Assembly: GCA_973895155.1 (NCBI GenBank)
Contig: OZ316897.1
Span: forward strand, 21,613,455 to 21,677,454
Reading direction: 5' to 3'
From: Marsupella aquatica
Taxonomy: Eukaryota > Plantae > Marchantiophyta
DNA length: 64,000 bases
Under the pieces are notes generated by a model. It was not told the DNA's origin, did no database searches, and saw only the letters and a program-made list of their open reading frames with translations. A program made the position numbers and the translations under genes. Shown here in pieces: positions 10,371-49,085 of the stretch (positions within the stretch are counted from its first letter, which is position 1; every line of letters starts with the position of its first letter).

Positions 10371-10399
10371 ACGCCAATGGGAAGAAGTAGAGGAACATG

Positions 10400-17474: not shown

Positions 17475-17852
<378 letters not shown>

Positions 17853-21099: not shown

Positions 21100-24000
21100 A
21101 CAGTAAGTGAGTAAACTGTCCAGGGACATCGTTCTATTCCCTCAGAAAATCATAAGTCACTTGAATGACTTTCATCCGACTCTATATCATTCCTACTACT
21201 AGTATTGCTCTGGTCACTACTGAAATCCCGATCAGTTGACTCAGCAGACTCATCAACATATTGCTTAACAAGGCATGCCTCATCGTCAACAAAAGGCAAG
21301 CAATATAAATTTTTTCTGGCGCCATGATGTGACCTACGACCTTTGCCTTCCCAGGAGATTACAAAAGCATCATCCGACTGAATTGCCGAGTTCTCTGCAT
21401 AGCAAGGCAGAGTAAACGTCTTCTGAGGAGAAACAATGCAAGATTCTTCAATCTTCCTTTGAAGCCAAAATCTCTCTTCAAAAAACCAGTCGACACGAGA
21501 ATCTCTGAAATCATGAAAACAATAAGAGCACTATCAATGAAATATCCAATCGAAAGACAATAGCAAGCTTCACCAGCCAATTGATTAAAGCAAAGGGATC
21601 TGGTATAAGCGAGAGGACCAGTACATTACTCCAGGTCAAATTCATATCATCCCCATCTTTTGCATCAGGAACATTAGGAGCCCCATCTTTGTTTTTTCCA
21701 CTCTTTGATCCTGCAAGAGAAAATTCATCCTCTGAATCGAAGTCCTCCAATGTTTCAGTGAGGTCTTCAATTTTCTTGTGTCTCTCAAGAACACTCTTCA
21801 ATGCCTTCTCTGCAGCACCATGGAGAACATCCCTATCCTCGACCCCAACAATGAACCTCCCGGAGAGTTCTCCAGCTGAAAATGAACTGCTGTCTCCAAT
21901 ATTCCAATCAAGCACAATGTCTCTAGGCTTTGTGAGAAGCTCCATCACAGCCTGCATGAATCCAACAGACAACCGAGAGGAACCAGAAAAAGCTAACTTT
22001 GCCTTGGTATCCCTTTTTGGATAACAAAGACTCAACATCGTCTTATGTGATGCATCTTCAGACGTTGCCAAAGGGACATACTTCGGGTCTTTTGGGATCT
22101 TCCCATTGACTTCCACTCGACAAAAGACATCCAGGCTTAAGTTGCAAACTTGGAAAAGTACAAAAAAACGTCAATTAATGAATCCAGGAAGGCCAGCGAG
22201 ATCGCTGTCACAAAAAACATACTAAACCATGCATATTTTACACAAATCTCACCTCAATGTTCATGTCTGGCATCCACATTGGGGACCCCAATAAAACATG
22301 GTACTTCCGAAGGTGTTTAAATTTGTTCCTCTGTTCAACAGCTCAGCAAAAATTTGCTTTGTGTGGTTAAATTCTCCACTATGGAGAACGGCCACATACC
22401 CATCATCGGCCAACATGGGCCTCATCACTCCACACAAATAGTAAGGGAGCTTCTCAACCCAGACATTCCATGGGGGAACGTCCACAATCATCGGTAACAC
22501 GAGGCCTCAGCCCAGTCGGAAGAGCTATGAACCCCAGATGGGCACCGGTCCCAGTGTAAGGCTTCCCGTTGATTTTTAAGGGATTCGGGTGTTCGGAAGA
22601 ACTTGAAATCTCCGAAAGCCATTGATCCCCCTCCCCCATCCAAGAAGGTCGAACCTTCTTCATACTTATCGAGTCAGCCGTCAAGCGCAAATTACTCTTT
22701 GCAAGGAAATGTCGCCTTCCATCCAACTGGAGTCCATAGAGTCCCGTGACACCCTCTCGGATTGAAATTTCTTCCTCATCAGAATCTGACAACACTTGAA
22801 CCTTTCGCTTCTTCTTCAACTTGTGGGACCCTGACTTATCACCTCCCGGCTTAGTCACAATTTCAAAATCGGGAGACTCAGGCTCAACAAGATCCTCCTG
22901 GCAACCATTAGTCACAGTCTGAACACTCTCGGAACCCAAAGACTTCCTCCTTTCTAGATACAAAAAAGCAACCTAAGAGCCTCAGGATATGTCATAAACT
23001 TAATCAGGATAGCAGCTTGGGAGAGGTAATAGAAGTAAGCTTCGGAGAGATAAGAATATACTTACTTTTCTTTCTAGAAATCATAGAGCCATCTTTTGAT
23101 ACCTCCTTGGCAACATCCCTCTTCAATTTCCGAGGGCAGCTCCTATCAACAGTTGGTGCCACCCCGAGGCATGCCTGCTCCATCGACACACGACCAGCAA
23201 TTTCTACTTCCGGGTTGCACAATTTAGATTCACTAGTAAAGAATTCTGGGACCAAGCCCTGATTGATCTTTTGAAGCGCAGCTTTCTCTGTCACATCAAA
23301 TGTCAGTGACCAATTCTCCGAATCTAAATACCAGGGACAATGCAGCACCTCCCATTCACTTATCTTCCGCAAGGGTTCAATGTCCTCAATAGGGTACATC
23401 AAGTACTCCCTAAACTTCTCACAACCGGAATCATCTCTTGCATATTGCGCCCATTGAGAGAAACATGTCGGATAACACCACCAAAAAGATCTATTTGCTA
23501 CCTCCCGATCAACAAAAAACCTGTAAACATATCTTTTTGCCCTCCGTAAAAAAGCAGCAATGTCAATCTTCTCCCCAACTTTCGGGTTCCACATGCTCTT
23601 AAAGAACCTTACCTTAACCCACTGCAGGAAATCCTCAAACTCATCATCAATTTCAACAAGGAGGGATGCCTGACTATTCTCTGGGGAAGAAAGAATTCTA
23701 GATTCAGGGATAGTGAGAATAATCTCATAGATTGCTTCACTTAATAAGCACCTCGCAATGGACTCTACCTGTTCCCAGGTTGCCCATCGATGCAACCAGA
23801 GCTTGGTCTCACTATCCAAAAATTGAGATGGGTGGAAATATTGTTTACGCAACTCTGATCTGCACTGTGCTTTGAGAAGAGCGCAACGGAGTTGTGGACT
23901 CAGAGAAGTTACCCCGGTGAAAAGCCTTGCACGATCAAGGCCACACGAAACATTCCCTCTCCCCTTATCATCCGTCCGCTGAGCTTCCTTCCTTTCTTTC

Positions 24001-25076
24001 GCACAATAATTGTGCATCTCAACACATTTCTTGAAGAAATCCCCAAAGTTTGGATTTAGAAGCGGGGCAAACTTTGGAACGTTGACATTCCAGTCAGAGA
24101 GTTGCTCCTTCATCATATCTCGAATTGCAATGTCCTTTGCAACTTTCGACAGAGGTTCACCAAGTTCCTCCTTTAGTGCAAACTTCTTGAGTAAGTCAGC
24201 AGTTTGCGAAGCTATGTTTGCCGCTGAAAGAATATAAATACATGCCTCTAAGGTCATCTGCTTTGAATACCACGACGGCTTCTTCACATTTTGCATCTTC
24301 TGCTAATTAAAATAACTTGAAATTCTCTGGATCAATTGAATCTTTGTAAAGTGAGAGGTCTGTGTGCAAAATCTTCTGGACCCGATCAGCTTCCAGCACC
24401 CACGAATTTTTGACGTGGCATTGTGTCAACCTGACAATGAGGACAAAATTCAGAAAACAACAAGAACAAATCATGCACAAAAAATGGAGGAAAAAGATCA
24501 AATGTGTCAAAGATCTTCTCACCGGTTGAGAGCATGCATTGCATATTCAATATGCACGAAAGTATCCTTCTCTCCTTTGAATATCTTTGAGACAACTCGA
24601 GGATGATATTTGACATTGTGAGGATTCTCAGCAGCAAGCAGGTTCCACGAATGGAGATGGTGATTGCCATCAAAAACACAAAACATTTTATCCTTGGGCA
24701 CAGCAAAATCAGGATGCGAATCACACTCCCTCTCAAAAACTTCACTCTACGCCAACCACATTGGATCCCAGCCCTGTCTGATTGTGTCGTTGAGAAACTG
24801 CACGTTGCCATTCTCATTTGTCATTTGCACATAAAAATGAGGCGCGTCCTCAATGTACCCTTGAGCCCGGAACTCATTCTTCAAAGTCTCAATTGCATTT
24901 GAATCTGTCTGAAGAGACCTCACAAGCTGTATGTTCCGCATTCGACACAATGGAATTTGAGGGGGAACCAGAGGATACCCAAATTCGTCCGGCCCAAACT
25001 AGTAAAGATGGCGGTTAATGACAACTGAGAAAGGCTCGGACTTGGCAGAATCCATCGAAGGTGGCACAATATCCAT
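21100..25076 (-). pseudogene. Multi-exon gene: ParB/Sulfiredoxin-like N-terminal domain, helical middle region, N6/N4 DNA-methyltransferase-like C-terminal domain; disrupted
   Basis: N-term QLVRSL...FCVFDGNHHL; C-term HLGFIALPTG...MLADDGYVAV...MELLTKPRDIVLDWNIGDSSSFSAGELSGRFIVGVED; in-frame stops (~24998, ~24747) and frameshifts; introns ~24431-24522 and ~22135-22252. Confidence 0.6.
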
Positions 25077-28000
25077 AGGATCAACAAGCTTTCGCCTCCT
25101 TGGAGTCTTCAACCCCGAAGCAAGTGCTTTGTGGCTCGTAGAACTCCTGGTCTCTCGACGTTGAGAGGCAGCTGATTTGAGGCAACGGACGAAATAGACT
25201 CAGGGGATGCAAAAGTTGCCATCGACTGATAAGGAGAGGAGAACCACGTAAACGGAATACAAGGAATTGGTACGGTGATTTGCAAAGGAATCCAAAGTCA
25301 CATGTGTTAGGAATCCTAAGCAAGATATTGGGGGAATCCAAATATCTACAGTGTATCTGACATTGACAGGGAATATCAGTATTTAACACCTTCATGCCAA
25401 AGATCCCGCTGGTGCTAACTAACGTTAACAAAGCATCAGTTAACGTTAAGAATGAGTCTAATTACTGCTTAACAACAACTCGTTCGGATGAAATGTACAT
25501 TTGACTCCAACGGTTCGAGTCAATTACTCTATAGTTGACCAACTTGGGTTGGGTGTCCGTTGAAAATAACTTGGGTTGGGTGTCATACAAAATATGCCGA
25601 TGGATGTAGAAAAGGAAGTTTTTATGAAATTTACTCTTCAAAATGAAGTAAACCCTTCCAACGGTAATATAATTTTGTCGTTAGATGACTGATTAGATGA
25701 CTGATTAGATTATTGATAAGGAAAAATAGGCGTAAACCCTAAACTCCATACTTTGTTTAAGACATGTATTTAGATAGTTTTTTGCCAGCAACATTGCTGG
25801 CCAAATTAGTGTTAATGGGGTAGGTTAAAAGTGATGTCTTGTTTTTTAAATGAGCCCTTAATTCTTTCCTAAATTCTAAAATACTTGACAGAAGTCAAAC
25901 AAACTTAACAATGTTTAATGTGTAAACATAACGTTTTGGAAATATATTTGTTTCGATATCCCTCATTTTAATCCCAAACTCAAATAAAAGTCTACCCTAA
26001 ATTTTGGGTGCATTAGGCTAGCAATATCGCTGGCCTGATTCAGGGTTTCTAAAAGGTTTAATTTATGGGACATCTCCAAATCCTCTCCTCTGTTAATGTC
26101 AATTTGTGAGTGAAAATCATATTATAGAATCACTAAAAATAGAGTTGGTTTAATAATAAAGTCCATTTTAAACACAGAAAACTTTCCTTTAGAAATTATG
26201 TCTAGCGAGGTCACTAGCAAAATCCGTTGTTTAACATGAAGCTCCAAGTTCAATAATCCTCCTAATGTACTCCAAGTTCAGTAAACATTTAGGAACAACC
26301 CAAGATATCCTTGTTGTCAACAAAAAACAGTCAATGTTTTAGACGATTACAAGATATAACTTTGGATTATTATGGAGCCCTTTATGATAGCAAATTTAGG
26401 CCAGCGATATTGCTAGCAATAATTCATTTCTTGAAGGTATTAGAGCCGTTGAAGTTTTGTCGTATATGCAACGTTAAAGTGATGTTCCATTTTATTCTAA
26501 ACTTTAATGTCTTCGTATTATTCTATATATTCATCCACTAGAAGAAACCGAGCTATTCTGAGACCTTCCCTTACATGACTTGTGCGAGACCTTCAGAAAT
26601 AAGTGACTCCAAGGTTTAGGGTGTCATGTTCGTCACACCTTGTTGACTGATTTTTGGTGAAGTTTAGGGGAGTCATGTTTTCAACTATTTGGAAAGTTGC
26701 AAGTACAACTCAATTGAGGCAATTACGTTGAAGTTCAACAAGTGACTCTACAATATAGCATTATGGTTTATAGCACAATATTTGAACCTACCAACCTAAA
26801 CCCTGAGCTATGGGATCCGACCCAATACATTGTTAGTGTAGATATACCTATATAATTAGATTACTCTATTTAAACATGGTTAAGTCATGCATTTTAACCA
26901 TTAGTGAGTTTTCCTTGATTATTCCAGGCCAAGAAAATTGCTCATAAGCACCCATTAATTTAGACACCATGCCATCATGCCCCCATTCAACCGCAAAAAG
27001 GCTTCACTATTGGCCGTGGTTACATATGCAAGGGACGTTAATGTGTATTACCGTGGTTACATATGCAAGGGCAGGTTATTTTTACTTATTGCCATGCCCT
27101 ACAAATTGACCAACATGTACCCCCCTCCACACATCGTTCCATGAACCGGGAATAGTCACAATTTACCTTCATATACTCCCCTCCATGCATGTTACATACC
27201 CAATAACGGCACCCCACACACTATGCTGATGGAATGAGCATAAGAACTTGTGACAACTCGTGTGACAGTGCTTACCTTAATCAAGCAAGGATCTGACGGT
27301 TGTAAACTTAATGAAAGGATGATCTGACGGTTGAAAACAAATATGCGCACATTAAAGCAGCTTTAGGCTTTAATGTGTTCCTTCACGGCATTGCCATTCT
27401 GCCTTGGATTCCTTTGGTTTCGCGGACGAGGAGCCAATGCTGCATTCTTTGCAAGGGAAAAGAGGGGGCACTTTGTCACTAAGGCAAAAGCTGCATCGAC
27501 AAATTGCAATCCCGACTGCAAAGTGAGTAGTAGGACGCGAGAAGAGCGAGTTTAGGGTGCTGCATCGACGAAACAGAATGTATTGGAAGGGGACAAGAGC
27601 AATTCTGTGACGCATCGACGATAGGCACTACGGAAGGCACTGTGAAGAGTTTGCACTACGGGAGGCACTCATTCCGACAGAAACTGCCCATCGAATGTGC
27701 TTGCTTGGGCTGAGGTTTAGGCTGCACTAGTAGGAAGAGAATCAGCAAAGCGACGAGGCTTTGGTGTGTCGCCAAGAACAACATTCGGAGCAGAGCAGAG
27801 CAGGGCAGCATTTGCGACATTTGCTGAGTTCTCATTTCGTTGCAGCTGCTATTTGTTGTTGTTGAAGATGGCCGCGGTTTCAGCTACGATTTGCGGTGCT
27901 CCTCTCACTTCAAAGCAGACAGATTCCGGGACCTAGGAAGTGGCCATCGCGAGCGCTCTCACAGAGGTCGAGGACTATCTGGTGCCGTTCCCCCCTTTTT

Positions 28001-30186
28001 TCCATTTCAGCTGGGTTTTCGGTGTTCATATCTCCCGTAGTAGAAGTGGTCATTGAAGAGAAGCTTTTATGAATTACAAAAGTCACTGAGGCATCGGTCA
28101 CTGAGGCATCGGCCTTTGAGTTGCAGTCACTGATGAGCTGTTTGAGTTGCGATGTCTAAAAATGATAGTGGCCCTGACTCCTGCTTATTGACTCCTGCAA
28201 GTTATTTAAGCTGAACTGATCTCAACGATAGAGATCAAGCGTGCTTACTTGAGCTGAACTGTCGTTGAACAGCGACGGGGCGCTGCTAGCAAGAGCTTGG
28301 GTTGCGACTTGCAACCAGGAGCCAAGACAAGTTGCTGCTTTACAACTGGACCGAGAGCTGGTCCTGCAACCTAGGAGGGAGCTACGATCATGCAAAGCTG
28401 AGTCAATGCATGCATGAGGTAATCACGTGTTGCGCCCACATTCTTGCTCCAATCATGTGTCTATTCACTAAAGTCTTCAGAATAAAGTCGGGGCTTATAC
28501 TAGTGCCACATGATTGTAGCGTAACCCCTCTCTCACTCTCACAACATATCACGGCAGAAGTGGGCTTTCACAAAATTTGCAAGAATTGACTATATTAAGT
28601 GGAAGGAAGAGACCCTTTGTCCATGCTGCAGTTGCATCCACATAGACTCTAACTGTGTCAGGATTGGATCCATAATTTGTTTGGCTATCTAGGCTGTGCA
28701 TCCACTGCTCTTTGCTGGATTTGGTGAGGCGGGAGGTTCAGAACGTGCTATGGACAAGGGGCTGAGTGACTTTTGTCCAACTGCGCTGAGCTGACTCGGT
28801 ATGCTAAAGGTTTGATACATCCAGAAGAGGTCAGTATGATCCCTAACCAATGTGAATTGAATATACGGAATGGGATATTTCCTCTAACTTTCAATGTTGC
28901 ATTGTATGACAACCACCATGGGCCATTCTGAAGTATTCAGTGTCTGAGTAATTCCTGGCTTCTAGCTGTGATGTCCGCATGAGCTAGCCCAAGTGAGGTC
29001 CAACTTGGAGCCTTATTAACATTGTTGTTGTGGGGCCGATATAGGAGGTTCCGTCTAGGACTTGCTGTACTGAAGCGAGCTCCTGCTCTGAGGTGCAACG
29101 TGAAGCTGCGCAATTTACATCTAGCTCAGCTCATGTATTGAAGTGAGCTCCTGCTTGGAGGTTCAGAGACAAGGTTTTGTGGAGGTAGGTGACTTCTGTC
29201 CAGCTGCGCTCAACTGAGTGAGTATCCTGAACCTGGAATCCTGAGTGAAGATAGGCCAGCAATGTTGCTAACTTTTTTTTTGCATACTATTATGGTTCCC
29301 AAAGAGGTCTGCTAATGAATGACACATTTGAATTGGCTCAACAAGGAATAGAAGAAGCCATTGCCTTGACATAATAGGTAATAATGGCTCCGATGGAATC
29401 TGTGTTGACAACTTGTGTTTGTTCTAATTGTTTATATCTCAAGAGGGTCGTCAATGAAGCTGACAGTCAGAGAGTCAAAGCTAACTACAAGCTAGCAAAT
29501 AGGTTGAATGCTCCCAAGTTGAGTCAGACAAAAGTTACTAAAACTAGGCCTCTCTCAAATCTGGAAAGTGAAATTCAGCCTGAGACACGCAGCTGAAGGC
29601 CACAAGGATAACTATTTGGCCAGGCTGTCCCTCATTGAAGTCCAAAGTCCTCTTCAGATTGTCTGAACTCCTGTCTGAACTCTTGAACTGGATGAACTCC
29701 TGTCTGAACTCCTGAATTGGATGAAGTCCTGCCTGAATCTGAAGTTCAGATTGTCAATCTCAAATGGCAAGTTCTGAACTCCTGTCTATTGAGCCTAATT
29801 ATTTGTTTATTGTTGTAGTAACATGCATGGCCAATTGGTTTGAATTGAAATGGTGGTTTGAATTTTGTTAAGTGTTTTGAAATTTGCATTCACACTGTCT
29901 AACTAATTTTCTTGTGTGATGCAGATATCTTTGCTATTGACAATCTTGAAAAATCATTTGATCACAGAAGTTTTCAGAACAAACACGGCAGAATTCAGGC
30001 TGAGGATTGGACATTGAGGCTCAAGACATTGAGGTAATAAACTGGTTGTGGTCCGGGTGACAATGTTATCAAATGATGCTTCTTCAGGGGAACTGCCCAT
30101 GTGTAGTTTGTTTTGCCATTTGAAGGGGGTCGTTCACTATATGCAATAGTAATAACTTTGTACATTTGTCTGTTTAATGTTCAGTC

Positions 30187-30867
30187 TTGGTAATGACTAG
30201 GGAGAAGAGGAAAGCCGTAAAAAATGCCACTGAAACAAAAAAGCGGAAACATAATGAGGCAATTGAGCCACATAGCTTGAAGATTGAACGCTGGTCAGAC
30301 ATTGAGAAGCGTCAGTGTAGTCCCCAGCTGTGTGCGATATGTGATTTTCATGGAGATCTGGTCGTGTGTGATGGGTCTTGCCATCATCATTTTCACTATG
30401 TCTGTAGAATTGGTGACACTGTAGGCAGGTGTCCTGCAGTGGTTATTGCACCAGGCAAGGATGGTGAACCCTGGTTTTGTGTAGATTGCAAGAATAAGAT
30501 ACACAAGTGTTTCAAGTGTGGCGTGGTCTCTCCAGCGGTCAGACAGTGCCCTCAGCCATATTGTGTTCGTTTTTATTGTCATGAGTGCTTGCCGCTTGAT
30601 GTGGAGTCTTGCCCCATGCATGCATGTACAGCATGCAAGCAAGATCACAAAGACCCTCATATGGCAAAGGCAATTCAATGCTTGAGATGTCCCACCACCT
30701 GGCATGAGGGTTGCTTAAGAGAGAGTCAACGTCATGGTTTTGCACCAGACAGAGAACCCTGGCTGCACACTGCGCACGGACAGCAGCGGTGGATGATTTA
30801 CTGCCCGAGGCATCCCATTGACCCTGTACTTGGCACACCTACCCATGATCATATCTCCTGGCTTTGA
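30187..30867 (+). CDS. Cys/His-rich PHD-finger cluster protein (NSD/EDM2-like triple PHD), CACTA cargo; probably has upstream exons
   Basis: CAICDFHGDLVVCDGSCHHHFHYVC..WFCVDC..HKCFKC..CPQPYCVRFYCHEC..CPMHACTAC..QCLRCPTTWHEGC..IYCPRH; basic NLS-like KKRKH; cag acceptor just upstream. Confidence 0.8.
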   Translation: MVMTREKRKAVKNATETKKRKHNEAIEPHSLKIERWSDIEKRQCSPQLCAICDFHGDLVVCDGSCHHHFHYVCRIGDTVGRCPAVVIAPGKDGEPWFCVDCKNKIHKCFKCGVVSPAVRQCPQPYCVRFYCHECLPLDVESCPMHACTACKQDHKDPHMAKAIQCLRCPTTWHEGCLRESQRHGFAPDREPWLHTAHGQQRWMIYCPRHPIDPVLGTPTHDHISWL

Positions 30868-31181
30868 TGTGGTGGAGTTTATATTTACCATGCGTTCACT
30901 TTAGGGGTTAGCCAAGTTTTGTCTTAGGCAGGATACCTGCACATTTTAAACTAGTCAAGACTCCAAACTTGCCTATTGTATTATGGTTATTCCCACTGTG
31001 TACACGAATATCATGCATGTTTATGGATGTCATGGTGAATGTGAATGTGGCGATACCCAAGTTTGTTCTGTTGTTGTTGCAATCCTTGTATGAATTGCAT
31101 ATTTAGGCATTCTCATGGATCTGCAGGTGATATCAGGGGTGTCCACTTTTTCCTTCACACTGTCAAAAGGCTGCACTGCAC

Positions 31182-32096
31182 ATGGCTACCTCCAGTAGGA
31201 CACTGAAGAGGCTTGCCTCAGACCTTCCTCCTACACTGTTTGCTGGAGTTAGAGCAATTTTTGTCACTCATACTAGGGGGGAGGACACGAATAGATGGGA
31301 GTTCATGAAAAGACAATTGGTTGAGAATGGAGGGATAGTGTTGAAACAAATCAGTAGAGACACCACACACGTCATCGCTGATGATTGGTGTGATGTGATG
31401 CAGAAGTGGTTTTGGAGCACCATCAACTTTTACAGAGAGTCCTATGGTCTTAAGGTTGTTGATGTCTCTTGGATGTATGACTGTCTAGAATATAGCACCC
31501 TTCACGACCCAACAGAGTATGATATATGGTTGAACAAACGGGCCACCAAAGACATTTTGCAGTTCAAAGCACAATATGATGATGCTTCACAGGGAACTAG
31601 GCAAGAGCTCTTAGAGCATCCTATGCCTGTCATAAACCCCCATGTGCGGGTCATGTTTAGGGGGGTTAAGGTCATGTTTGTGGGTGTTGGGATTCCACCG
31701 GGAAGGTTGAGACGTTTCAAGCACAAAATTCTGCACAGGCAGGGTGAGGTGCATGAACGCCTCATAGATTCTACCACTCATGTGGTCACCCTATCCTATT
31801 CCAGACTTTGTCGTATGGTTGGAAAGACTTTAGTTCGGATGATGGTTAGTAGGGGCCTGCAAGTGGTTTCACCTGCTTGGATGAAAGAGTCACTAGATAG
31901 AGGCATTGTACTTGATGAAGCAGCCTTTGATCTGAATGAGGTGTGGCCTCAAAAGCCTAAGTACAAAAGATGTAAGAGCTGGGATGGAGGTGATGAACCA
32001 TTAGTTAATGATGTACTCAGGGACACAACCACAGAGTGGGAAACCACGAGTGATGAGGACGAATACTCTTCTGACACTGGCGAATACAATGATTAG
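31182..32096 (+). CDS. Tandem BRCT-domain protein with acidic tail, CACTA cargo
   Basis: Two repeats, LFAGV..GG.V...DTTHVI..VVDVSWMYDCL and MFRGV..GEVHERL..TTHVV..VVSPAWMKESL; open 304-aa ORF. Confidence 0.85.
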   Translation: MATSSRTLKRLASDLPPTLFAGVRAIFVTHTRGEDTNRWEFMKRQLVENGGIVLKQISRDTTHVIADDWCDVMQKWFWSTINFYRESYGLKVVDVSWMYDCLEYSTLHDPTEYDIWLNKRATKDILQFKAQYDDASQGTRQELLEHPMPVINPHVRVMFRGVKVMFVGVGIPPGRLRRFKHKILHRQGEVHERLIDSTTHVVTLSYSRLCRMVGKTLVRMMVSRGLQVVSPAWMKESLDRGIVLDEAAFDLNEVWPQKPKYKRCKSWDGGDEPLVNDVLRDTTTEWETTSDEDEYSSDTGEYND

Positions 32097-32140
32097 TTTA
32101 TCTGATGAAGAGCCATGACAGTGTCAGTCATTTAGACAAT

Positions 32141-34121
32141 CACTAGTACATATTTAGCTGATTTCCGATGCTCAATTTTTGCAAACAATCGGCATCCGAT
32201 TCTTTTAGAATCGGAAATTCCCATTATCACAAAATGGCAATATGCCATACTCTCGGCTTCAGATATCTTCATTTTCCGATGTAATTAACAACGGAACCTT
32301 TCCGATGCAGTAAAAAACGGATCATATCCGTTACAAACTACATCGGATCCCCTAACAAAAAATTTGATTGATATGTCCGATGTTTTTTGTAACGGAAATG
32401 ATGTGCGTTTCAATATTGATCGGAAAAGTTCCGTAGTTGATAAGAACGGATATTATATCCGATTGTGGTAAAATGGCAAAGTCCGATGTTGAGAGAATGG
32501 GAAAGTCCGATGCTGAGAGAATGGGAAAGTCCGATGCTGGGAGAATGGGAAAGTCCGATGCTAGTAGAATGGGAAAGTCCGATGCTGGGAGAATGAGAAA
32601 TTTTCATTTTGGCAAAACGACAAATTCCTATTGTGTTAGATGGGGCATGTAGTTGCACCGACATACTCTTCCTAGAAAAGAGGATACAATCATTCTTGCA
32701 TGTTTGAATGACTTCATACTTGAGGCAAATGGACTTAATTGAATGTTGTTCTTGCCTCCTTCCAAGACCCCAAAATATTGTTCCCTTTTGGCAATATTTG
32801 CTCAACATGCAAAATCAAAAATTTATCATCTTAAAGGAGATTGCTTGTCCCATGTAGTCTTTGTTGCAAGTCCAACAACAACATAGTTGATGAAAGATGA
32901 GACAATCGGGAGCTGCCCTTGACACCAAGGCTTTGGAAGGACCAAAATATTAATCTTCCATAACTAATAAACTATAATGATCTCATGTCAAGTCGGATGG
33001 AGGAGGGCTTTACTATTCACGAATGATCCCAAATTTCTATTGATTGCTCCAAGGGAATGTAAGAGGGTAATCGTAATTATAGATCACTCGATGCAAACAT
33101 GCAATATCATGATAGAGCAAAACTAGGATTTATTAGTCTAATGCCACACTTTTGTGGCATAATCACTACATTGCCACTCTTTTTCTTGTATTTATCAGTC
33201 TACCACTTGTTTGAGTCATCGGTTAAGAAAAGTAACTCAAGTTAACTACCTAAGATCCGACGTTTGAGATTTCTTTTGGTCTTCCCATTGGACGGTCGTC
33301 GCTTCCCCCACGGTTACATTTTGAACCCTCAGTATAGTTTGCGGAGGGGTGGGTTGGCTAATCCATTTCTCCTCCCCTCCATTTCTCTGTCACCATAGTT
33401 GAGGCGCACTGGCTGCGTCTTTGCTCCACCCTTGCCACTATCGTTGCGTCCTCATTTCCCCGGCCCGGGCTGTGTTGTCGTTGACCCTAGCTGGCTGCCT
33501 CTAGCTTGGCCAGGGCTGCATTGTTGCATGTTGCCTGTCGGCCTCTCCCGACTCTGCCCAGCTTAGGTCCAAATTATGGGTCTTAATAAATTTAGAAGTG
33601 TATAAAATCCCTAAACACTCCAAGTCAAACAATAAAAGTGTTAAGCTTGCATGTACATTGTGAGGGATAAGAACTAGAAAGTTAAGCTCATGTTGGAGGA
33701 ATAGCAATTGGGATGGGTGACCACTTAGTTGAGGAATGAAGAGTTGAAATGTCAAAGGAGGTGGGCACCTCGCTCGTGGTTGCAAAATGAAAGTAAATAT
33801 ACAAAGGAAGAGATGGGTGACCTGAGCACCCCGCGTCCGCTCCAATGTGTATCCCATTTTCATTGTTTTAAACTTTCCCATTCTCCCAGCATCGGACTTT
33901 CCCATTCTCCCAACATCGGACTTTCCCATTCTCTTAGCATCGGACTTTCTCATTCTTTCAGCATCGGACTTTCCGATATAAGTCCGATTGTCGATATCCG
34001 ATACTTTTATCATGGCATGTTACGATGCCGGCGGAATCGGATGTATGGTTTTTTCATATTTTGTTTTACAAAGACGTCCGATGTGGAGAGAATCAGAAAA
34101 AGGAGGTAAAATGTACTAGTG
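32141..34121. mobile_element. Nested non-autonomous CACTA element (1981 bp)
   Basis: TIR CACTAGTACAT / ATGTACTAGTG; TSD AAT on both sides; 24-bp subterminal tandem arrays in inverted orientation. Confidence 0.95.
32468..32597. repeat. 24-bp tandem array (gaatgggaaagtccgatgctggga) x~5; inverted counterpart at ~33873-33976
   Basis: Directly visible; these are subterminal repeats of the nested CACTA. Confidence 0.9.
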
Positions 34122-34599
34122 AATGAATACTTGTTAGTGGTGAACTTGTTTCCTTAAAATTCCATCTGTAATAAAAACATTCATTGTCCTCTCATCATGT
34201 CATTCCACAATCAAATCATCTCTTTGCTTTGGATGCTGTTCAAATTTTGTTCAAATTTTGTTCTGTGTTGTGTGTCGTGTTGGCTTTTCCTTAACCAGGG
34301 ATGTGGCTTTGTCCTCATGTCTACATACAATGTTGCAAGGCCCCTACGGAGACAGTACGTACTGAACGGGTTGTTTACAGAGTTGGGGAGACAGTACCTA
34401 CTGAACGGGGTGTTTACAGAGTTGGGCAAACGTCCTTTGCTATTTGTATTGTTGACAACTTCAACTCAGGTACATGACCAATTCACATGACAACAATGCA
34501 CTTCTTCTTTTGACCATTAGTAGGCTACTTTGTTACCCTTTTCACCCATTGTTCATCACTACAGAGTTTGCAGTCTATTACAATGCACCCTCGTCACCA

Positions 34600-37500
34600 C
34601 CCTCCCCAGACCCAACGCAATGCACAGCCATTGCCTTTACATCATCCCATAAGAGTTGCACGCCATGACAATAAGCTTTGGCAGCGTGAAACATTAAGAA
34701 ATAGACTTGCAGGAGCCAGTAGGATGAGATGTCCTTGTGCAATCTGCCAAGGGACTCGTAGCAGGGTCCTCAGTGAGGTTTGGCGGCATATTGTGGTGAA
34801 TGGGCGAGATCCACGACATCGAGTTTGGAATGATCCAGCGGAGGAAGATACTTCTGATGAGGAGTGGAGGGCAGATTTTGAGGCTGCCAATGTTGTGCGA
34901 CGGTCGGAGGTGGATCTGCCAGGTGATTTGGACAATGCTGTTGCTGGTCTATGTGGGATCACTGACCACCAATAGGACATTCGTCGGGCAGAGCCACGTG
35001 ACGAAGGCATTCATGTGGAACAGATGGTGCGAGACATCTTTCAGAACTTGGATGCATTTCATGATGGGTTGGACAATGAAGACAACACTGATGCTGATGC
35101 AAGTGTGCCCCCAGTTGACAATCCTCTAGATGAGTTTGAGATAGGGCAAGAAACCCCTGGGCATGATTGGATGTTTGGCTCTCCTGTGCAAATTCAGGAA
35201 TGCAGGCACCCCCTTTATCCCGGTAGCAAGTGTTCCAAACTAGCATTTGTCATCATTTTCCTGAACATTTGCGGCAACCACAATGTCCCTAACATTTTTG
35301 TTTCTGAGTTGTTGGCCTTCCTACGATTGACTGTGCTACCGCCTGATAATCTTTTGCCAAAAAGCATGTATGAGGCTAAAAGATGCATATCTAATCTTGG
35401 ATTGAACTATGATTCCATCCATGCTTGTCCTGATGGGCATATTCTCTTCAGAAATCAGTATAAGGATCTCTTGAGATGCACTGTGTGTGGGAAGCACAGG
35501 TATCGAAACGTAGGGAAGTCTTTAGTTCCAGCAACGGTACTTTGTCATTTTCCACTCATTCCTAGGCTTCAACGGATGTTTAGAAGCCCTGCTATCTCAA
35601 AGATGATGACTTGGGCAGCTTAAAAAAAAATCTCGGATGGGTTGCAACGACATGCTGCCGATTCAAGACAGTGGAAACTCATAGATGAGATGTTTCCAGA
35701 ATTTGCAACAGAGCCAAGGAATGTGAGGCTTGGGTTGTCATTGGATGGGGTAAACCCATTTGGAGACAAGAACAATAAGTTCTCATGCTGGCCTGTAACT
35801 ATTTTGAATTACAACCTTCCTCCTTGGATGACTACAAAGAGATTTTTTGTTCTCCTAGTTCTGTTGCTACCAGGGCCAGACTCTACTGTGTCTGCCAACA
35901 TAGACATGTACCTGGCTCCCCTTGTGGACGAATTGAAGAAGCTATGGGATGAAGGAGTTCTCACATATGATGTGCTGCAGAGGCTTGGGAGGCTGAACCC
36001 TTTCATACTTAGAGCAATCATCATTTTGACTATAGCTGACTACCCAGCCCATGGTATGATATCAGGACAAGTAACAAAAGGGTATCGGGGATGTACTATT
36101 TGTGGGCCCAATGTCACCAGTGAGCACTCTAGAGCTTTGGGGAAAGTGATATACATGGGCCATCATCGTTTTTTGAGGCCAAATCACCCTTACAGACGAA
36201 CGCGGGCACTCATTGCACACTTTGACCACACCATTGAGGATCGCGGACCCCCAGAACGGGTGACCAAAGAAGAGATCAAGCAGTGGGGAGCACTCAGGGA
36301 TGACTACATCAAACGAGGAGGCAGGCCAGATGCAGTGGATGATCCAGGAAAACGATATGGTGTGAAAAGACAGAGCATATTGGACTTGGAACTGGAGTAT
36401 TGGAGGGTAAGCCTCTGAGGCTCTCTGCTCCTTGAAAATGATTGCTGCTTTGGAATGCTTCATATGATGTGCATGAATTTTGACTAGACTCAACTAAATG
36501 CATTTGCATACTCACTTTATATATATTGCAATTGTGCAGAAGTTTGAGCCAAGCAAACATAACATTGATGTGATGCACATTGAGAAGAATGTTTGCGAGA
36601 GTCTTCTGCAATTTTTGTGTGGAGAGAAAGACACTGGTGCTGTAAGATTGGATCTTGAACGGAGGGGTATCAAACCCCATCTGTGGTTGAGGCCACATGC
36701 TACCAAAGCTGATGTATTGTTAAAGTACCAAGCGCCTTATGTTCTGACAGATGATGAGTGGAACCTATTTGTCCAAAGGTTGGGTTCTTTGAAAGTTCCT
36801 TCAAACTATGGGAGTGCTTTCAAGAAGCACATTATGAGTAGGAAGCTTGGCAGTATGAAAAGCCATGATTATCACCTATTGATGCAACAGGTGTTGCCTT
36901 TATGCTTGAGGGGTCTTTTGCAAAAGCCTGTTCGTAATGTCATCATGCGATTGAGTGATGTGTTTCGCCGTATTTGTGTGAAGGTTTGGGATGAAGCCCA
37001 GTTCCCACAGCTCACAGAGGATGTTGCTCAGGTGCTGTGTGACTTGGAGATTTATTTCCCCCCAACTTTTTTTGATGTTATGACTCACCTACTTGTCCAT
37101 GTTGTGGAAGAGCTACACCAGTTTGGGCCTATTAGTGCTCGTTGGCTGTACCCTTTGGAGCGGTACATGAAGTTACTGAAAGGTCACGTTATAACATATT
37201 ACAAGCCAGAAGCAAGCATGGCTAAAGGTTACATCAAGGATGAAACCCTAGGATTTCTGACCGAATACATAGCACAGTATGAGCATGTGAATACCAGGGT
37301 CTGGAATTCTGATGAGGAGAAAGGGGTCATAGGGGAAGTATTGGAAGGGGCTGCAACAACAAAGAATTTGACAACAGCTATGAGAGACTTGGCACATGTC
37401 TTTGTATTGCACAACACTGTGCTCATGGAACCTTGGATACAGTGAGTACCATCATGTCCTACTAACAACCTCCTTCATAACATATCATTGTCTGCATGTG

Positions 37501-38324
37501 ATTAACTCCCAACATTTCAATGGATTGCCAAGCTAATGTTGTGAGATTGTTTCTTCAGGGAGTACGAGTCATTGAAGGCTGCCCATCCCACTGTTGGTCC
37601 AGCCTTTCCAAGTTTGGCAGAGTGGATCCGGCTAGCGATTAGGGAGCATCATACAACCCATCCAGACATGGATGCAGACCTTTACCTCCTATCCAATGCC
37701 CCTAGTCTGAGAGTGAAGAGTTACAAACGGATGAGAGCATATGGGAATCACTTTCGAGTGAAGGATGATGAGAGTGCGTACAGGGTGACAAATGACTGCG
37801 GGCTCATTACTGTATTTCAACAGCAGAGCCATGACCATGATAGGGCCTGGATGGAGATGGGATATGTGGGTGAACTAATTGACATATGGGCTCTAGATTA
37901 TGGGGCCATGTCCAGCCCTGTCATTGTTATGAAAGGTTCATGGGTTCGACAGGATTGGGACAGTAATAGGGCTACCATGAAGAGAGACAATGATGGATTC
38001 TTGCTTGCCAATTTTAGAGGGAAATTGCCTGAATGGTCTGAGCCATTTGTCTTTCCCAGTCAGGTGGAGCAAGCTTTCTTCCTGGATGTGGAAGACTCCC
38101 CAGGTTGGCGTGTAGTCTGTCATAAACAGGCTAGGCAACGTCGGATGGAAGGATCTAAACTTGAGTTCCATTTACATTCTCATAGTGCCTTTGATCGTCG
38201 ACGTGCACACCAAGTGTCTGTTCTTCATTATAGCAGGGAGTTCATTCCTGTGACAAGGGTAGAGGCATTTGCTGAAGGGGATCAACTTAATGATCCAGAT
38301 GCCGATAGTGAACCTGTGCCTTGA
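34600..38324 (+). pseudogene. CACTA TnpD/Tnp2 transposase (transposase-associated N-terminus, Transposase_21, DUF4218-like, DUF4216-like), mildly disrupted
   Basis: RMRCPCAIC; YDSIHACPDG; RLGLSLDGVNPF; IADYPAHG; IDVMHIEKN; MKSHDYH; WLYPLERYM; EPFVFPSQVEQAFF; in-frame TAA at 35621-35623, frameshift near 34970; introns ~36407-36539 and ~37443-37558. Confidence 0.92.
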
Positions 38325-38682
38325 GTAACCTGCATTGTTTGCATGGACACAAATAGATTTTGTAATAAATTAATTGTCAAGGAGCAGATGCATGGTCAAG
38401 TAATTGGATTGTGTTTCAGGGTGACCATAGATGACATGTGCTTGTGATCCAATAGGATGGAACAGAGTGACACACATATGTGTGAGTATGAAAGGCAAGC
38501 CATGGAACGTCGAGCATACGTGAATGCCAGAATAGTCGAACTGGAAGCCTCCTTGAAAATGGATGTGGCTGAATTGTAAGGGAACAATTTTCTGCCAAAA
38601 CTTGATGTTAAGTTGGGTGTGACCTGAACATTTGATTGTGGCACTAAAATTGTGATTTGATTCTTGTATTGGTGTATTGCAG

Positions 38683-41600
38683 ATGCACAGACCTTTCAAA
38701 GCAACAAAAGGAGCGTCAAAGGAGGGTGACTAGCAGTACCACTGGACCTGTGCGTCGAAGTGAAAGGTTGAGCAACAAGGTAATACCTACAATGGCAGAA
38801 TGTGCAGATGAGATAGATCCTGCACAAGTGGGTGACCAGGGGAGACAAAACGATCCAGACAATGAGTATTTTCCAGAGGAAATGGATGAGGATGGTGGAT
38901 ATGAAGATGAATACATTGCGGAGCCACCAAAGAAGAAGCAAGTATGTAGTTTTCTAATGATGGTATTGGGTTCAAGTGCTGAGTACAACTTAGGTCTCAT
39001 GCGTTCACTAGCTATGACCATAATGTTTTCTCAAATTATATTTGGTGATGTATGTCATGCAGGGTCTCGTGAGTTCTGCTTTGCTTACTCAACCTATGCC
39101 TCCACGTTCGGTGCCTTCTACTTTGCCTACTCAACCTGTCCCTCCATGTCCCATGCCTTCTGTTTTGCCTACTCAACCTGTCCCTCCACGTCCCGTGCCT
39201 TCTGCTTTGCCTACTCAACTTGTGCATCCACCATACCAAGGTGGGATGAACCCTGGCCGTGGTTGGCAAGGTGGTAATAGAGGTAGATCCCAGATTGGTG
39301 CCCAATACTACGGGAGGGGACAAAGTTCAGGTTTTGGCCACAGCAGAGGTAGATCAGGTCAAAACTCACAGTCTCGTGGGTATGGCTGTCCACCTCAAGC
39401 ATGGGGATGTGAGTATTTCAATTAATTTATATGCCAATCCTTTGCTAATTAGTAGTGTGGAAAATTTGTGAAGGACTGTGAGGTCTAGCAATGAATGCAA
39501 TTTATGTTACGGTTGGATTGAGAGAAGATTACATTGTGTCCTCGCTTGAATTGCATGTAGATTCTGCTCAACCTGATTGGGCAAATGCTCCTAATGAGGA
39601 GTACCAATGTCCGCCAGGACAAACTTGGGTGGAACCAGGTTGGGAGGATGCTGATGGGACTTGGAATGAACAAGGCTGGGAAGGTGGTGCTGGTAATTGG
39701 CAGGGGTATCAAAATATGTCAGCCCCTATGAATGCAGGAAGAGGAACAGGTAAAGTCTCCACTTGTTTGCATTGGAGGGTAAGTCACTTTTTTATAGTCC
39801 ATTCAAATGGGCTTTTCAAGGTTCATGTTTAAGGAATGATGGCAAATGTGTGTGCAGGTTGGGCGGGTGAAGGATCAAAAGTATTCATTAACGCCCCTAC
39901 GCAGATGCAGCATGGAAGGGGGTCAGGTAAATTTGAAAGTGGATAGCAGGTTTACCAATTTACTAAGTCATGAAGAATGTTGATGTTGTCAATCCATGCT
40001 ATACAGTGGGTACATAATGACTAGAAAAGAAGCATGTACTGGGTTGGGCAGGTGGCGAACAGTCACAACAATATCAGAATTTTGTCCCTGCACAGATGCC
40101 TATAGGTGGAGGTGCAGGTATATGTATGTTTTATCTTTTGTGGTCCCCTGGAATTAAAGACTTGTTTGTGCAGATTGCATGTAACTATGTTTTGAGATGA
40201 ATGATTGCCACCTAGGTACAAGCTTGTAATTGCATCTGTTTGATACATGAATGTTTGGCAATGGGAATGGCTTTGTGAAGGTGACTTCAGAACTCCAAGT
40301 AGGGTGAATCGAGGGGTGCCCATTACACCCCCCAGTACTACAGAGAGCAGTGCACAGGGGGAAGTAACAAAGAAAGGGACAGTAAAATTGAATGACAGAC
40401 AATGGGTGGATGCTGAGTGTCCTCGCAAGAATCGATGGCATGCTGATTTGAAAGCTGAAGTTCTACGTTGGTTGGATGTGAGTATTATTAATTTTAAAAA
40501 ACAACATGCCCAAGATTGGAAGACGGTTTGTCAAATATTGCTGCTCGATGGAATTATGTGGGCAGTGATGATGGAGTGGAAATTGCATGCTTGGAAAGTA
40601 CAGCAAGCAAGATTATTAAACAGGAGAGATGGAGGATGCACAAGGCATGGAAAGAAGGTGGGAAGAAGCCAGATATGCCACCACTAGCAAGCTGTGATGA
40701 TAAAGTGTGGAAAAGATTGGTAGACTATTTTGTGACCGATGCTTCCAAAAAGAAGAGTGCACAGATGATTGATGCACGATTGAGTGTTCAGAACCCTAAC
40801 CTGACAGGAAGAACCGGCATAGCCCCCACAGCAAAATGCTTGGTAAGAACCGGGAATGATAGTATATTCATTTACTGATGATTATAAGTACTATTGAGTT
40901 TGTTGTTGAAGTAATTCTAAATTGCAAGGGATCTGATGTTAAGAGTTCTTGATGTGCAGAAAGCCCAGTTGGGGCAAAGCCCTTCAAAAGAAGAGTTGAG
41001 GGCTGAGATATTGAATAACAAGTGTGAGGCATCTGAGTCGTCAAAGGCTGTAAGTACATATTTTAGGGTTCCAAGTTGAATGACCTTCAAGGGAAGAGTA
41101 TAGGCCACACATACATGGAATTGTATCCTTACCCAACTGTGGATTGTGAGTGACTCATTGTTTTTCTGTTATTATGTAGGGAGGTGGATCTTCATTGACA
41201 CAGATCAATGAGCGTTTGAAGTTTGTGGAGACATGTCTGCCAGAGGTGAATGATTGATTGAGTCAGCTGACTGAGTTGTTCCATGGTAAGCTTGCATCAT
41301 TAATGGAAGCCATAGTGTCGGTGAGAAGTAAGATTGAAAGCAGCTTTGGAGGAGTTCCACCATCACCGCTTGAGGTGGCAAAGTCTATGCACTCTTCTGG
41401 CATTCCAGTGGTATCTGCAGTTCAAGGTAAGACTTTATATATATTTGTTGGATATGATGCTAGAAATCTAGGTTATGACTCATTAGAATGGTTATGATGA
41501 CTTGGTATTTGACATTGTTAATGTGACATATATTGTTGTGGTGTCCCATAGAGAGAGAAGCAGATGTTGAGCAAAGCAAATTTGCTCACTTGAAGAAGAG

Positions 41601-42369
41601 TCGATGCAACTTAGAGGCAACCAAGTTGTAGCCTATTGATAACCGGGATTTGGCAGAGGGCAATGATGAACCATCTTTGCTCAAGGTTGACATTGTTGAA
41701 GGTGATATGAATTCAAATGTTGGGGTAGAGGAACAATATACTTTCCCTGACAATGATAATGTTGAGCCAGATACATCCTATATGGAAGAATGTTTATGGA
41801 ATGTGGACCCTGATCTTGGTCCCATTCCAAAATTACCTGAATTGACAACAACAGGTGGGTTTGCTAGTGTGCCCATGCCAACAGAGATGTCTGCTCCTAT
41901 GGCCATCCCTAGGAAGGAGTCTACTTCTGTGGCCATCCCATGTGAAGTGCCCCTGGAGACAGACTTGACTATTGTGAATTCAAAGAAGGGGAGCATGCGC
42001 ACCAGAAGCAAGTCTACTGGAAGCAAAGTCACAACAAGGGCAACCTACAAACCTCCAAGGTCAGTGGTGAAGGAGAAATCTAAGGTGGAAACAGTGAAGG
42101 CACCAAATGCAGAGGGGCATTCTAAGTTGTTGGCTATTGATGATAGTGGGACATGTGTAGGATTTGGCAAGGTGCAAGCAGGTTCCACAACTTTCCATGG
42201 GAGAAAAGTTCCACCTGGTTATTCTGTAGTGTTAATAGACTTACTTGTGGTTCCAAAGGCTGCTCTCCCTTTTCCCAACACCAATGATGATCCTCCTCAA
42301 AGAGTTCTTCTTGATGCAATAGGTTCTACAATACTGTGGCCAATCAAGTTTATAGAGGATGAACAGTAA
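38683..42369 (+). CDS. CACTA TnpA-like multi-exon protein (Pro/Gly-rich N-terminus, Transposase_24-like middle, C-terminal FHG-containing domain); probably disrupted
   Basis: W..W..LVDYF....KKKSAQMIDAR..NPNLTGRTG; C-terminal TTFHGRKVPPGYSVV..LPFP..DAIGSTILWP; several GT-AG introns; frameshift near 40535. Confidence 0.7.
39075..39225 (+). repeat. 42-bp coding tandem repeat (PTQPVPPRPVPSAL) x~3.5
   Basis: Directly visible inside a TnpA-like exon. Confidence 0.8.
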
Positions 42370-43339
42370 AGTCATGCATACAGCCATGTGTTTGTAGTTT
42401 TAGTTTCATGCTTTCTGTATGTAGAAAGCATAAGAACCCTTACCTTTGACATGATATTAGTTAATATGAATATTTTGGTTTGAGTTCTCCCAAATGACTA
42501 GGTATGTAGGTTAGAAGCAGCTGTCTGTCTAGAGCTCTTGTCTGTCTAGAGCTCCTGTATTGGTGTATTGCAGATGCACAGACATTTTGCAAGATCATGA
42601 ATTGATCGCATTAGTCTTGTATCATTGTGAACTATAATTTGGATAAATTCTGTTGCAATGAATGCTTCATTTTGAAAATGTGTTCAACTCATTCCGTATC
42701 ATGCCTTTGAATGTGTTGAATGCACCTTATGTTTCATTATACTCGTGCAATTGTCATGAATGCACGATACTTTGAAAACTATGACTAGAATAAAATAGTC
42801 ATAGACAAGAGTGCATCTCACAATTAATACCACAAATACTAACACAAGACCCATAAGTCCTCAACAATCGCCTTATAAGTCATGTTCATTACTAGGCCAT
42901 GTAGTTTCCTTCAACGATCTTAGTTATAAACACTACTAACACCAGATCCAAAGGATGTGTTGACAACTTGGAGATGTTAAAACTGATACTTCTAAAATGA
43001 CTACACATAGTCACAACTTAGTCGCAAACACCAGTAATCTCAGTTCGTCGGAGGTCATGGTAGTAAGAGAGGCATGACTGATGGTAGTCACAGTGTAGTC
43101 ACATTAGATGTGTGGTTTTATGCTCTATTTTAGTCAGCACCTAGTCACAGTTTGGGTATCATCCATGTCACGATGTACAGTAGTATTAGTGACTTTCCAT
43201 ATTTTAGTCACATATGCATTTAGATAACTTGTGCGGTCTCAACCAGGGTCACGGTTGAGGAAGTCACATTGGTGTCACAAGGACTAAAAATAGTCACAAT
43301 TCCGGTCTCAACAAGGCTTGGTTTCTTCTAGTGATCCAT

Positions 43340-48833: not shown

Positions 48834-49085
48834 GCGAGGAGAAAGATCGAGAACAATTCACTCACCTGCAAACAGATGACAGCTAGCTTGGAAAAGCTCG
48901 AGACCTCGCAGTCTAGCACCAGGAGCGAACCAGTTCAGTACTTGGTGGCAATCTACGAATGTGACTTGCAGCAGAACTGAGCACCAGGAGCTAACCAGTT
49001 CAGTACTTGGTGGCAATTATCGAACGTGACTTGAAGCAGGGGCCAGGCCGAAGTTACTGCAGGTCCTGGAGGGCCAAACACAAGT

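What the first reader, a model, noticed from the sequence alone, without database searches (positions are those of the whole stretch)
31182..32096. CACTA element carries an intact tandem BRCT protein resembling the DNA polymerase lambda BRCT
Seen in sequence: two BRCT repeats in an open ORF, while the element's own transposase has a stop codon. Established knowledge: the pattern MFxGxxVxxVxxGI/VxxxRLxxxKxKIxxxG...THV...WxxxSL recalls the Pol X (Pol lambda) BRCT, which docks on Ku/XRCC4-Lig4 during NHEJ. Inference: the transposon may recruit or titrate end-joining machinery at excision or insertion breaks. BRCT proteins are not standard CACTA components.
Basis: partly seen in the sequence, partly recalled or inferred. 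Interest (0 to 1): 0.72.

Follow-up and report, generated by a model that had tools for sequence, protein, structure and literature searches.

The report
Transposon-borne twin-BRCT accessory gene
A cut-and-paste (CACTA) transposon in a plant genome carries a gene for a small protein made of two BRCT docking domains from an old, widely diverged family, which likely serves the transposon as an adaptor for host DNA-repair proteins, although the residues that polymerase lambda uses to grip the end-binding protein Ku are not conserved in this family.

Summary
The ORF is real: 304 codons, two BRCT domains (Pfam, AlphaFold2), inside a 16.8-kb CACTA element (26536-43333, 30-nt inverted ends, ATC target duplication) that also holds an NSD-type PHD-finger ORF, TnpD and a TnpA-like gene. 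A second, non-coding CACTA sits between BRCT and TnpD in this copy. The protein belongs to a stand-alone, intronless twin-BRCT family (7 full-length relatives, about 27-35% identity). BRCT2 does score best against polymerase lambda among solved structures, but narrowly; BRCT1 does not, and the R57/L60 Ku-contact pair is kept in 1 of 16 family domains. 'Intact while the transposase is broken' carries no weight: other copies read the first TnpD stop as Gln, and a 304-codon ORF would stay open about 60-80% of the time at this level of decay. Whether the distant relatives also ride in transposons could not be tested; nor could expression. Best reading: an old captured and duplicated BRCT kept as a CACTA accessory gene, likely a repair-protein adaptor. 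The scan has not noted this on other DNA, and my paper searches found no description.

The parts
26536..43333 (+). Outer CACTA element, 16,798 nt; all four coding regions on the + strand
   Evidence: 30-nt inverted ends, 83% complementary (I22); ATC on both sides; AGTCAC seven times in the last 934 nt against 28 in the whole window
26536..26565 (+). Left terminal inverted repeat (starts CACTA)
30178..30867 (+). NSD-type multi-PHD-finger ORF (likely last exon or whole gene; own stop)
   Evidence: Pfam PHDvar_NSD E 1.5e-5, below cutoff; NSD3 E 1.8e-9, NSD2 9.5e-9; 3 relatives at 63-82%
31182..32096 (+). Twin-BRCT ORF, 304 aa
31230..31529 (+). BRCT1 (residues 17-116) with a conserved Trp-rich alpha-2 region
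31650..31943 (+). BRCT2 (residues 157-254), the more Pol-lambda-like repeat
32037..32063 (+). Short aromatic-x-Thr-Thr-Ser motif in the acidic, disordered tail (residues 286-294); possible CK2 site
   Evidence: pattern in 5 of 11 sequences examined, shuffle frequency 0-0.047 each; pattern was written after seeing the alignment
32141..34121 (.). Nested non-coding CACTA element, 1981 nt, 24-nt subterminal arrays at both ends
   Evidence: inverted ends and AAT duplication; arrays; absent from the common form in run X3 (inferred from unitig overlap)
34583..38324 (+). TnpD transposase, three coding blocks, in-frame stops at 34973 and 35621
   Evidence: Transpos_assoc, Transposase_21 E 6e-70, DUF4218 E 9e-27, DUF4216; stops
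38648..42369 (+). TnpA-like multi-exon gene, frameshift near 40532
   Evidence: Transposase_24 E 7e-4, below cutoff; one-base difference at 40532 in X2 and X3, not X1 or X4
43304..43333 (-). Right terminal inverted repeat

Best explanation
The ORF is a twin-BRCT gene carried inside a CACTA element in several near-identical copies, likely derived long ago from a captured Pol-lambda-like BRCT that duplicated, and likely kept as an accessory adaptor that gathers or occupies host DNA-break proteins at transposition ends. Shown: the gene, its two folds, its place in the element, its diverged family and the kinship of the two repeats. Inferred: origin from Pol lambda, maintenance by selection on the transposon, and the adaptor role. 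Because neither the phosphopeptide pocket nor the Ku-contact pair is conserved, binding would go through BRCT-BRCT or helix contacts, the conserved linker helix and an acidic tail that would be phosphorylated by CK2. It would be made from the same-strand primary transcript as PHD, TnpD and TnpA by alternative splicing (inferred from the En/Spm pattern, recalled).
For: Element anatomy. phmmer over 1.84 billion representatives: 19 hits at E<=1e-3; 14 of 19 are family members or single-repeat fragments of them by my reading, best 33% identity, E 4.5e-33; none of these 14 carries another Pfam domain. Eight full-length sequences share length 264-321 aa and the two-repeat layout. Against relative L001, codon positions 1, 2, 3 are 52, 58, 40% identical over 291 codons, as expected of protein-level constraint. 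BRCT1 and BRCT2 profiles match each other at probability 99.3, E 4e-20. BRCT2 ranks Pol lambda first in the PDB, and two Pol-lambda-like proteins are among the 5 hits outside the family. Several copies: two distinct 3'-end variants in X3 and a decayed copy in X6. Relatives look like decaying repeats: L001 has a premature stop where cluster mate P0022 is open, and several hits are single-repeat pieces. Precedent for captured domains kept by plant DNA transposons: ULP1 in five grapevine CACTA families (PMC2528002, passages), VANC/KIU (PMC13317346, passages). Tail motif resembles the YxxSTDE CK2/FHA motif of XRCC1 and XRCC4 (PMC4655838, passages).
Against: No genomic context for any distant relative: the one locus fetched (L001, 1404 nt) has too little flank, so CACTA linkage is shown for this family of copies only. 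No dN/dS: the copies differ by 1 base in 805, and the two differences mapped inside the ORF are both nonsynonymous (H108/Q, N303/S). No binding partner was tested. The Pol lambda origin is weak: BRCT2 identity to Pol-lambda-like rows is 23%, the same as BRCT1-BRCT2 identity; tree support for the group of 7 BRCT2 rows plus Pol lambda is 52/91; the full-family profile ties Rad4, REV1 and Pol lambda. The tail motif is absent from 6 of 11 sequences, and only P0003 has Thr at the FHA-binding position.
Confidence: 0.42

Rival explanations
1. Pol lambda mimic: one BRCT docks on the Ku70/80 bridge and recruits or titrates end joining.
For: BRCT2 profile ranks Pol lambda first (34.6 bits against 31.0 for BRCA1 and 28.6 for REV1); 22% identity to the Pol lambda BRCT is the highest among single-domain BRCT2 rows; Arg at the R57 position in both repeats of this protein, with Phe at the L60 position in BRCT1.
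Against: R57 plus hydrophobic 60 in 1 of 16 family domains; Arg at 57 in 5 of 16; BRCT2 carries the L60R equivalent, and R57 and L60 changes were the most damaging in PMC12056208 (passages). The register in BRCT1 is less sure because of gaps, and plant Ku may differ from human.
Confidence: 0.13
2. Chromatin or anti-silencing partner: BRCT and the neighbouring PHD protein act together as a reader-adaptor pair that protects or targets the element, like VANC/KIU.
For: NSD-type PHD ORF 315 nt upstream on the same strand, conserved at 63-82% in relatives; VANC precedent (PMC13317346, passages).
Against: Contigs laid at 80% or more pile up on the PHD region but a single contig covers the BRCT ORF, so many PHD-bearing relatives either lack BRCT or carry a far more diverged one; no DNA-binding or enzymatic domain in the BRCT protein; no interaction tested.
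Confidence: 0.2
3. Passenger: a host (or other repeat) gene of an unsampled lineage-specific twin-BRCT family was picked up recently and rides along without use.
For: Host genome not available; copies nearly identical, so no time for decay; both mapped changes nonsynonymous; X6 copy has 21-nt and 2-nt deletions.
Against: No second version at 80% or more over 31160-31830 in X2 or X3 (contigs drop rare variants); best protein relative only 33% identical; full-length intronless ORF with both ends rather than a gene fragment; relatives also show repeat-like decay.
Confidence: 0.25

Closest known systems
ULP1-carrying CACTA and MULE elements; VANC/KIU of VANDAL elements (PMC2528002, PMC13317346; passages read)
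   Same: A plant DNA transposon keeps a host-derived protein domain as an extra gene beside its transposase.
   Different: The cargo is a twin BRCT with no catalytic domain, next to an NSD-type PHD ORF; function and spread across families are untested here. The review passages searched hold no mention of BRCT or PHD.
DNA polymerase lambda BRCT (PDB 2jw5, 9g9l)
   Same: BRCT fold (Z 11.9, rmsd 2.1, 94 aligned, 22% identity); top PDB hit for BRCT2; similar beta1-alpha1 loop.
   Different: Two repeats, no polymerase; L60 equivalent is Arg in BRCT2; contact pair kept in 1 of 16 family domains.
DNA ligase IV tandem BRCT and XRCC1-type scaffolds
   Same: Two BRCTs with a long linker (Foldseek top hit is an NHEJ-complex chain of 255 residues, E 1.4e-11); acidic Ser/Thr tail like the XRCC1/XRCC4 CK2 motif.
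   Different: rmsd 22.6 and TM 0.27, so only spacing is alike; 14% identity; no ligase or N-terminal domain; the tail motif is not an exact YxxSTDE.
Pack-CACTA transduplications
   Same: Host-like sequence between CACTA ends.
   Different: Whole open ORF in an element with its own transposase; no close donor seen.

Membership tests
CACTA (En/Spm) transposon, outer element | Terminal inverted repeats starting CACTA | tested here: met
   26536-26565 and 43304-43333
CACTA (En/Spm) transposon, outer element | 3-nt target-site duplication | tested here: met
   ATC/ATC
CACTA (En/Spm) transposon, outer element | TnpD (Transposase_21, DUF4218, DUF4216) and TnpA-like gene | tested here: met
   the TnpA match (Transposase_24, 20.2 bits) is below the curated cutoff
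CACTA (En/Spm) transposon, outer element | Subterminal short repeats | tested here: met
   AGTCAC seven times in 42400-43333; related words at the left end
BRCT domain superfamily | Profile match above cutoff and BRCT fold | tested here: met
Pol X (Pol lambda) Ku-docking BRCT | Closest BRCT class by sequence | tested here: inconclusive
   first for BRCT2 by 3.6 bits, not for BRCT1, tied with Rad4 and REV1 for the full profile; no plant Pol lambda was available
Pol X (Pol lambda) Ku-docking BRCT | R57 and hydrophobic L60 on helix alpha1 | tested here: not met
   1 of 16 family domains; BRCT2 of this protein has R175/R178
Pol X (Pol lambda) Ku-docking BRCT | Single BRCT ahead of a polymerase domain | tested here: not met
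   two BRCTs, own stop, no other Pfam domain
Pol X (Pol lambda) Ku-docking BRCT | Binding to Ku70/80 | not testable with these tools
Phosphopeptide-binding tandem BRCT (BRCA1/MDC1 type) | Ser/Thr-Gly after beta1 (PMC10386641) | tested here: not met
   read by eye from the alignment: 0 of 16 or 1 of 16 domains, depending on register
Phosphopeptide-binding tandem BRCT (BRCA1/MDC1 type) | Head-to-tail packing of the two repeats | tested here: inconclusive
   pTM 0.50, linker 146-153 disordered; rmsd 12-15 against BRCA1/MDC1
Recent Pack-CACTA capture | Close host donor gene | tested here: inconclusive
   none at 80% or more in X2, X3 contigs or among 1.84 billion representatives; host genome not held
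Selected transposon accessory gene (ULP1/VANC kind) | Present in diverged transposon families | not testable with these tools
   no flanks obtained for relatives
Selected transposon accessory gene (ULP1/VANC kind) | Purifying selection between copies | tested here: inconclusive
   copies too alike; deep-time codon pattern 52/58/40% does not say where selection acted
Selected transposon accessory gene (ULP1/VANC kind) | Expression | not testable with these tools
   no RNA run was available to lay

The most novel reading that the evidence does not exclude
A clade of plant CACTA elements has long carried its own two-gene cassette, a chromatin-reading PHD protein and a twin-BRCT scaffold derived from polymerase lambda, with which the element steers host double-strand-break repair at its excision and insertion sites: a transposon-encoded repair adaptor.
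Probability: 0.22. Interest if true: 0.82.

Novelty: new variant of a known kind. Interest (0 to 1): 0.5.

Why it matters
Cut-and-paste transposons leave breaks that the host must mend, and are generally taken to rely on host repair passively (own knowledge). Known extra genes of plant DNA transposons act on silencing or SUMO (VANC, ULP1). A BRCT-only cargo protein would be a candidate handle on repair choice, footprint shape and transposition rate, and is easy to test. As it stands, the finding adds a twin-BRCT family for which I found no description and a CACTA layout (PHD, BRCT, TnpD, TnpA); the function is open.

Tried and rejected
No whole genome held. Word-based homolog search with the ORF: 0 of 763 candidates; with the alignment: 2 of 2640; only the exhaustive search found the family. 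Context searches: metagenome scan with P0022 gave 1 locus of 1404 nt; genome contigs with P0004 and viral contigs with P0001, P0026 and the ORF gave none. No RNA holder listed; this says nothing about expression. ESM Atlas: all hits under 0.9, generic BRCT clusters. P0012 is a low-complexity repeat and was dropped; P0016 is a three-BRCT protein of another kind. Pfam on 12 short frames upstream of the PHD ORF: no match. Tree of 21 single domains: BRCT1 forms one group (94/93), BRCT2 is unresolved; one partial P0016 domain was left out. The second TnpD stop (35621) was not among the 40 rows shown of 168, so its state in other copies is unknown. Depth ratios suggest roughly 3-7 copies (X3: 564 against 109-146; X4: 144-320 against 42-45), but the tool warns that depth is no copy number. 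No complex prediction was run: no host Ku was at hand and the report claims no specific pair. Paper searches: CACTA+BRCT gave 7 unrelated listings; searches gave 0; one search gave 6 papers, 5 listed, none on a transposon-encoded BRCT by title and abstract start. One search aligned two unrelated flank ORFs and is of no use.

Full report
Setting. The window holds a chlorophyll a/b-binding-family gene, a CAP-domain gene, an AIG1-type GTPase ORF and much decayed repeat DNA, so it is plant DNA; a bryophyte is my guess from recalled likeness and was not tested. No whole genome is held.

The element. Inverted ends of 30 nt starting CACTA lie at 26536 and 43333, with ATC on both sides. Inside, all on the + strand: an NSD-type PHD ORF (30178-30867), the BRCT ORF (31182-32096), TnpD (34583-38324; Transposase_21 E 6e-70, DUF4218 E 9e-27) and a TnpA-like gene (38648-42369; Transposase_24 below cutoff). 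A second CACTA terminus starts 45 nt behind the BRCT stop; it belongs to a nested 1981-nt non-coding element (32141-34121, AAT on both sides). So the BRCT gene is cargo of the outer element. In run X3 two contigs end 7 letters past 32140 with letters that do not follow the nested element (pieces 13, 14) and one begins 20 letters before 34122 (piece 17); 20+3+7 is the 30-letter overlap of neighbouring 31-mer unitigs. I infer that the common form lacks the nested element and has BRCT about 500 nt upstream of TnpD.

The protein. Pfam BRCT matches twice (E 3.8e-13). AlphaFold2 on a 14-row alignment gives two confident BRCT folds, a helix at 119-143, a loose stretch at 146-153 and a disordered acidic tail; pTM 0.50 leaves their relative position open. 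An exhaustive search of 1.84 billion representatives gave 19 hits. By my reading 14 of 19 are family members or fragments; the other five are two Pol-lambda-like proteins (P0017 with Pol lambda fingers, P0018), a single-BRCT protein of unclear standing (P0019), a three-BRCT protein (P0016) and a low-complexity artefact (P0012). With cluster mates there are seven full-length relatives of 264-321 aa at about 27-35% identity, all with two BRCTs, a Trp-rich alpha-2 region in BRCT1 and no other Pfam domain among those scanned. They come from contigs of 0.6-13 kb and carry no informative names. The BRCT1 and BRCT2 profiles match each other over 108 columns (probability 99.3), which fits an internal duplication, though mean identity between repeats (23%) is no higher than between BRCT2 and the Pol-lambda-like rows (23%).

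Is intactness meaningful? No. TnpD has two stops in 3489 coding nt; at that density a 912-nt ORF is free of stops with probability 0.59, and a neutral simulation gives 0.91-0.50 for 0.2-1.5% divergence. All 4 of 4 runs read C at 34973, so the first stop is particular to this copy; differences across the stretch are dominated by A>G and T>C, that is G-to-A and C-to-T changes in the window copy, as expected of a methylated repeat (inference). In the BRCT ORF one 805-nt contig of X3 differs by one base; the two differences that I mapped are both nonsynonymous, and at residue 108 the other copies have Gln, the residue that most relatives hold. The gene is not unique to this copy: X3 has two 3'-end variants (2 and 8 differences in 147 nt), and X6 holds a copy with 21-nt and 2-nt deletions. 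The best holders come from two studies, one of which may be the window's source. Evidence for selection is deep-time only: an open 304-codon frame with no relative closer than about 33%, and codon-position identities of 52, 58 and 40% against L001. That shows protein-level constraint somewhere in its history, not that it acted inside a transposon. L001 has a premature stop where its cluster mate P0022 is open, a hint that relatives also sit in decaying repeats, but its flank is too short to tell.

Pol lambda. With the single protein, TopBP1 (2.5e-5) ranks above Pol lambda (0.009). The full family profile ties Rad4, REV1 and Pol lambda (1.8e-7 to 5.7e-7). A BRCT2-only profile of 4 rows ranks Pol lambda first of 58 (34.6 bits; BRCA1 31.0, REV1 28.6); a BRCT1-only profile of 6 rows ranks TopBP1 first and Pol lambda at 0.041. 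By fold, PARP4 (Z 15.6, rmsd 1.6, 93 aligned) and XRCC1 (14.4) precede Pol lambda (11.9, rmsd 2.1, 94 aligned). A tree of 21 domains places the two Pol-lambda-like rows with 7 of 8 BRCT2 rows at weak support, 52/91; those two rows were found with this query, so the test is biased. Pol lambda is a reasonable, unproven donor. No plant Pol lambda was available. For function, PMC12056208 (passages) shows R57 and L60 to be the key Ku contacts and tested L60R. BRCT2 here has R175 and R178 at those places; BRCT1 has R38 and F41; across 8 proteins the pair is kept in 1 of 16 domains. Ku docking in the Pol lambda manner is therefore not the family's conserved job. The Ser/Thr-Gly phosphate pocket described in PMC10386641 (passages) is also missing (0 or 1 of 16, by eye).

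What is conserved instead: the Trp-rich alpha-2 of BRCT1, a linker helix, and in 5 of 11 sequences an aromatic-x-Thr/Tyr-Thr/Ser-Ser/Thr/Cys word in the acidic tail (shuffle frequency 0-0.047 per sequence; pattern chosen after seeing the data). It resembles the YxxSTDE CK2 motif through which XRCC1 and XRCC4 bind FHA-domain end-processing enzymes (PMC4655838, passages), but only P0003 has Thr at the position that FHA domains need. This is a lead only.

Neighbour. The PHD ORF matches NSD3 and NSD2 (E 1.8e-9, 9.5e-9) and has relatives at 63-82%. A likeness to the PHD module of plant EDM2 is recalled, not tested. Many contigs pile on PHD and TnpD, one on BRCT, so related families either lack BRCT or carry a far more diverged one.

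Comparison. Captured domains kept by plant DNA transposons are known: ULP1 in five grapevine CACTA families (PMC2528002, passages) and VANC/KIU (PMC13317346, passages, with no occurrence of BRCT or PHD in its main text). Searches found no report of a BRCT gene in a CACTA element; the library lacks most subscription papers and Repbase, and supplements were not read. The scan's own notes hold no look-alike; one note mentions an accessory cassette in red-algal Plavaka elements, which I could not look up.

Verdict. Real gene, real CACTA cargo, family without a description that I could find; Pol lambda likeness modest and confined to BRCT2; strict Ku-docking unlikely; repair-adaptor role plausible and untested. 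New variant of a known kind; interest 0.5.

Noticed in passing
window 30178-30867 (+): NSD-type multi-PHD ORF inside the same CACTA; conserved at 63-82% in relatives and apparently shared by many related elements in runs X2, X3, X6; may be the more widespread accessory gene.
   Followed up: partly
window 32141-34121: Nested non-coding CACTA with 24-nt subterminal arrays; six different flanks at its left end in run X6, so a mobile multi-copy family.
   Followed up: partly
window 43335-47061 (+): Decayed ORFs right of the outer element; the last ends in a Cys-x-Cys...Cys-x-His word that looks like a SWIM finger (recalled), so possibly a MULE-like transposase gene; no Pfam match.
   Followed up: no
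window 21150-24820 (-): Cluster of long minus-strand ORFs (up to 432 aa) without Pfam match except a weak DNA-methylase hit (N6_N4_Mtase E 0.069 at 21514-22170); possibly cargo of another element.
   Followed up: no
window 10345-10773 (+); repeats at 791-1731 and 10914-11258: Remnant of another TnpD (30% identity, E 2e-11) and related repeats.
   Followed up: no
window 2020-3435 (-) and 12994-13719 (-); inverted repeats 3928-4437 / 13643-14100: AIG1-type GTPase ORF and an ELIP-like chlorophyll-binding ORF whose upstream regions are inverted copies of each other (81-100% in pieces), suggesting a promoter-side duplication.
   Followed up: no
window 17475-17855 (+): Isolated MCM P-loop fragment (E 4e-13) in AT-rich DNA, probably a pseudogene piece.
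   Followed up: no
window 49035-49526 (+): CAP (PR-1-like) domain exon (E 4e-11).
   Followed up: no
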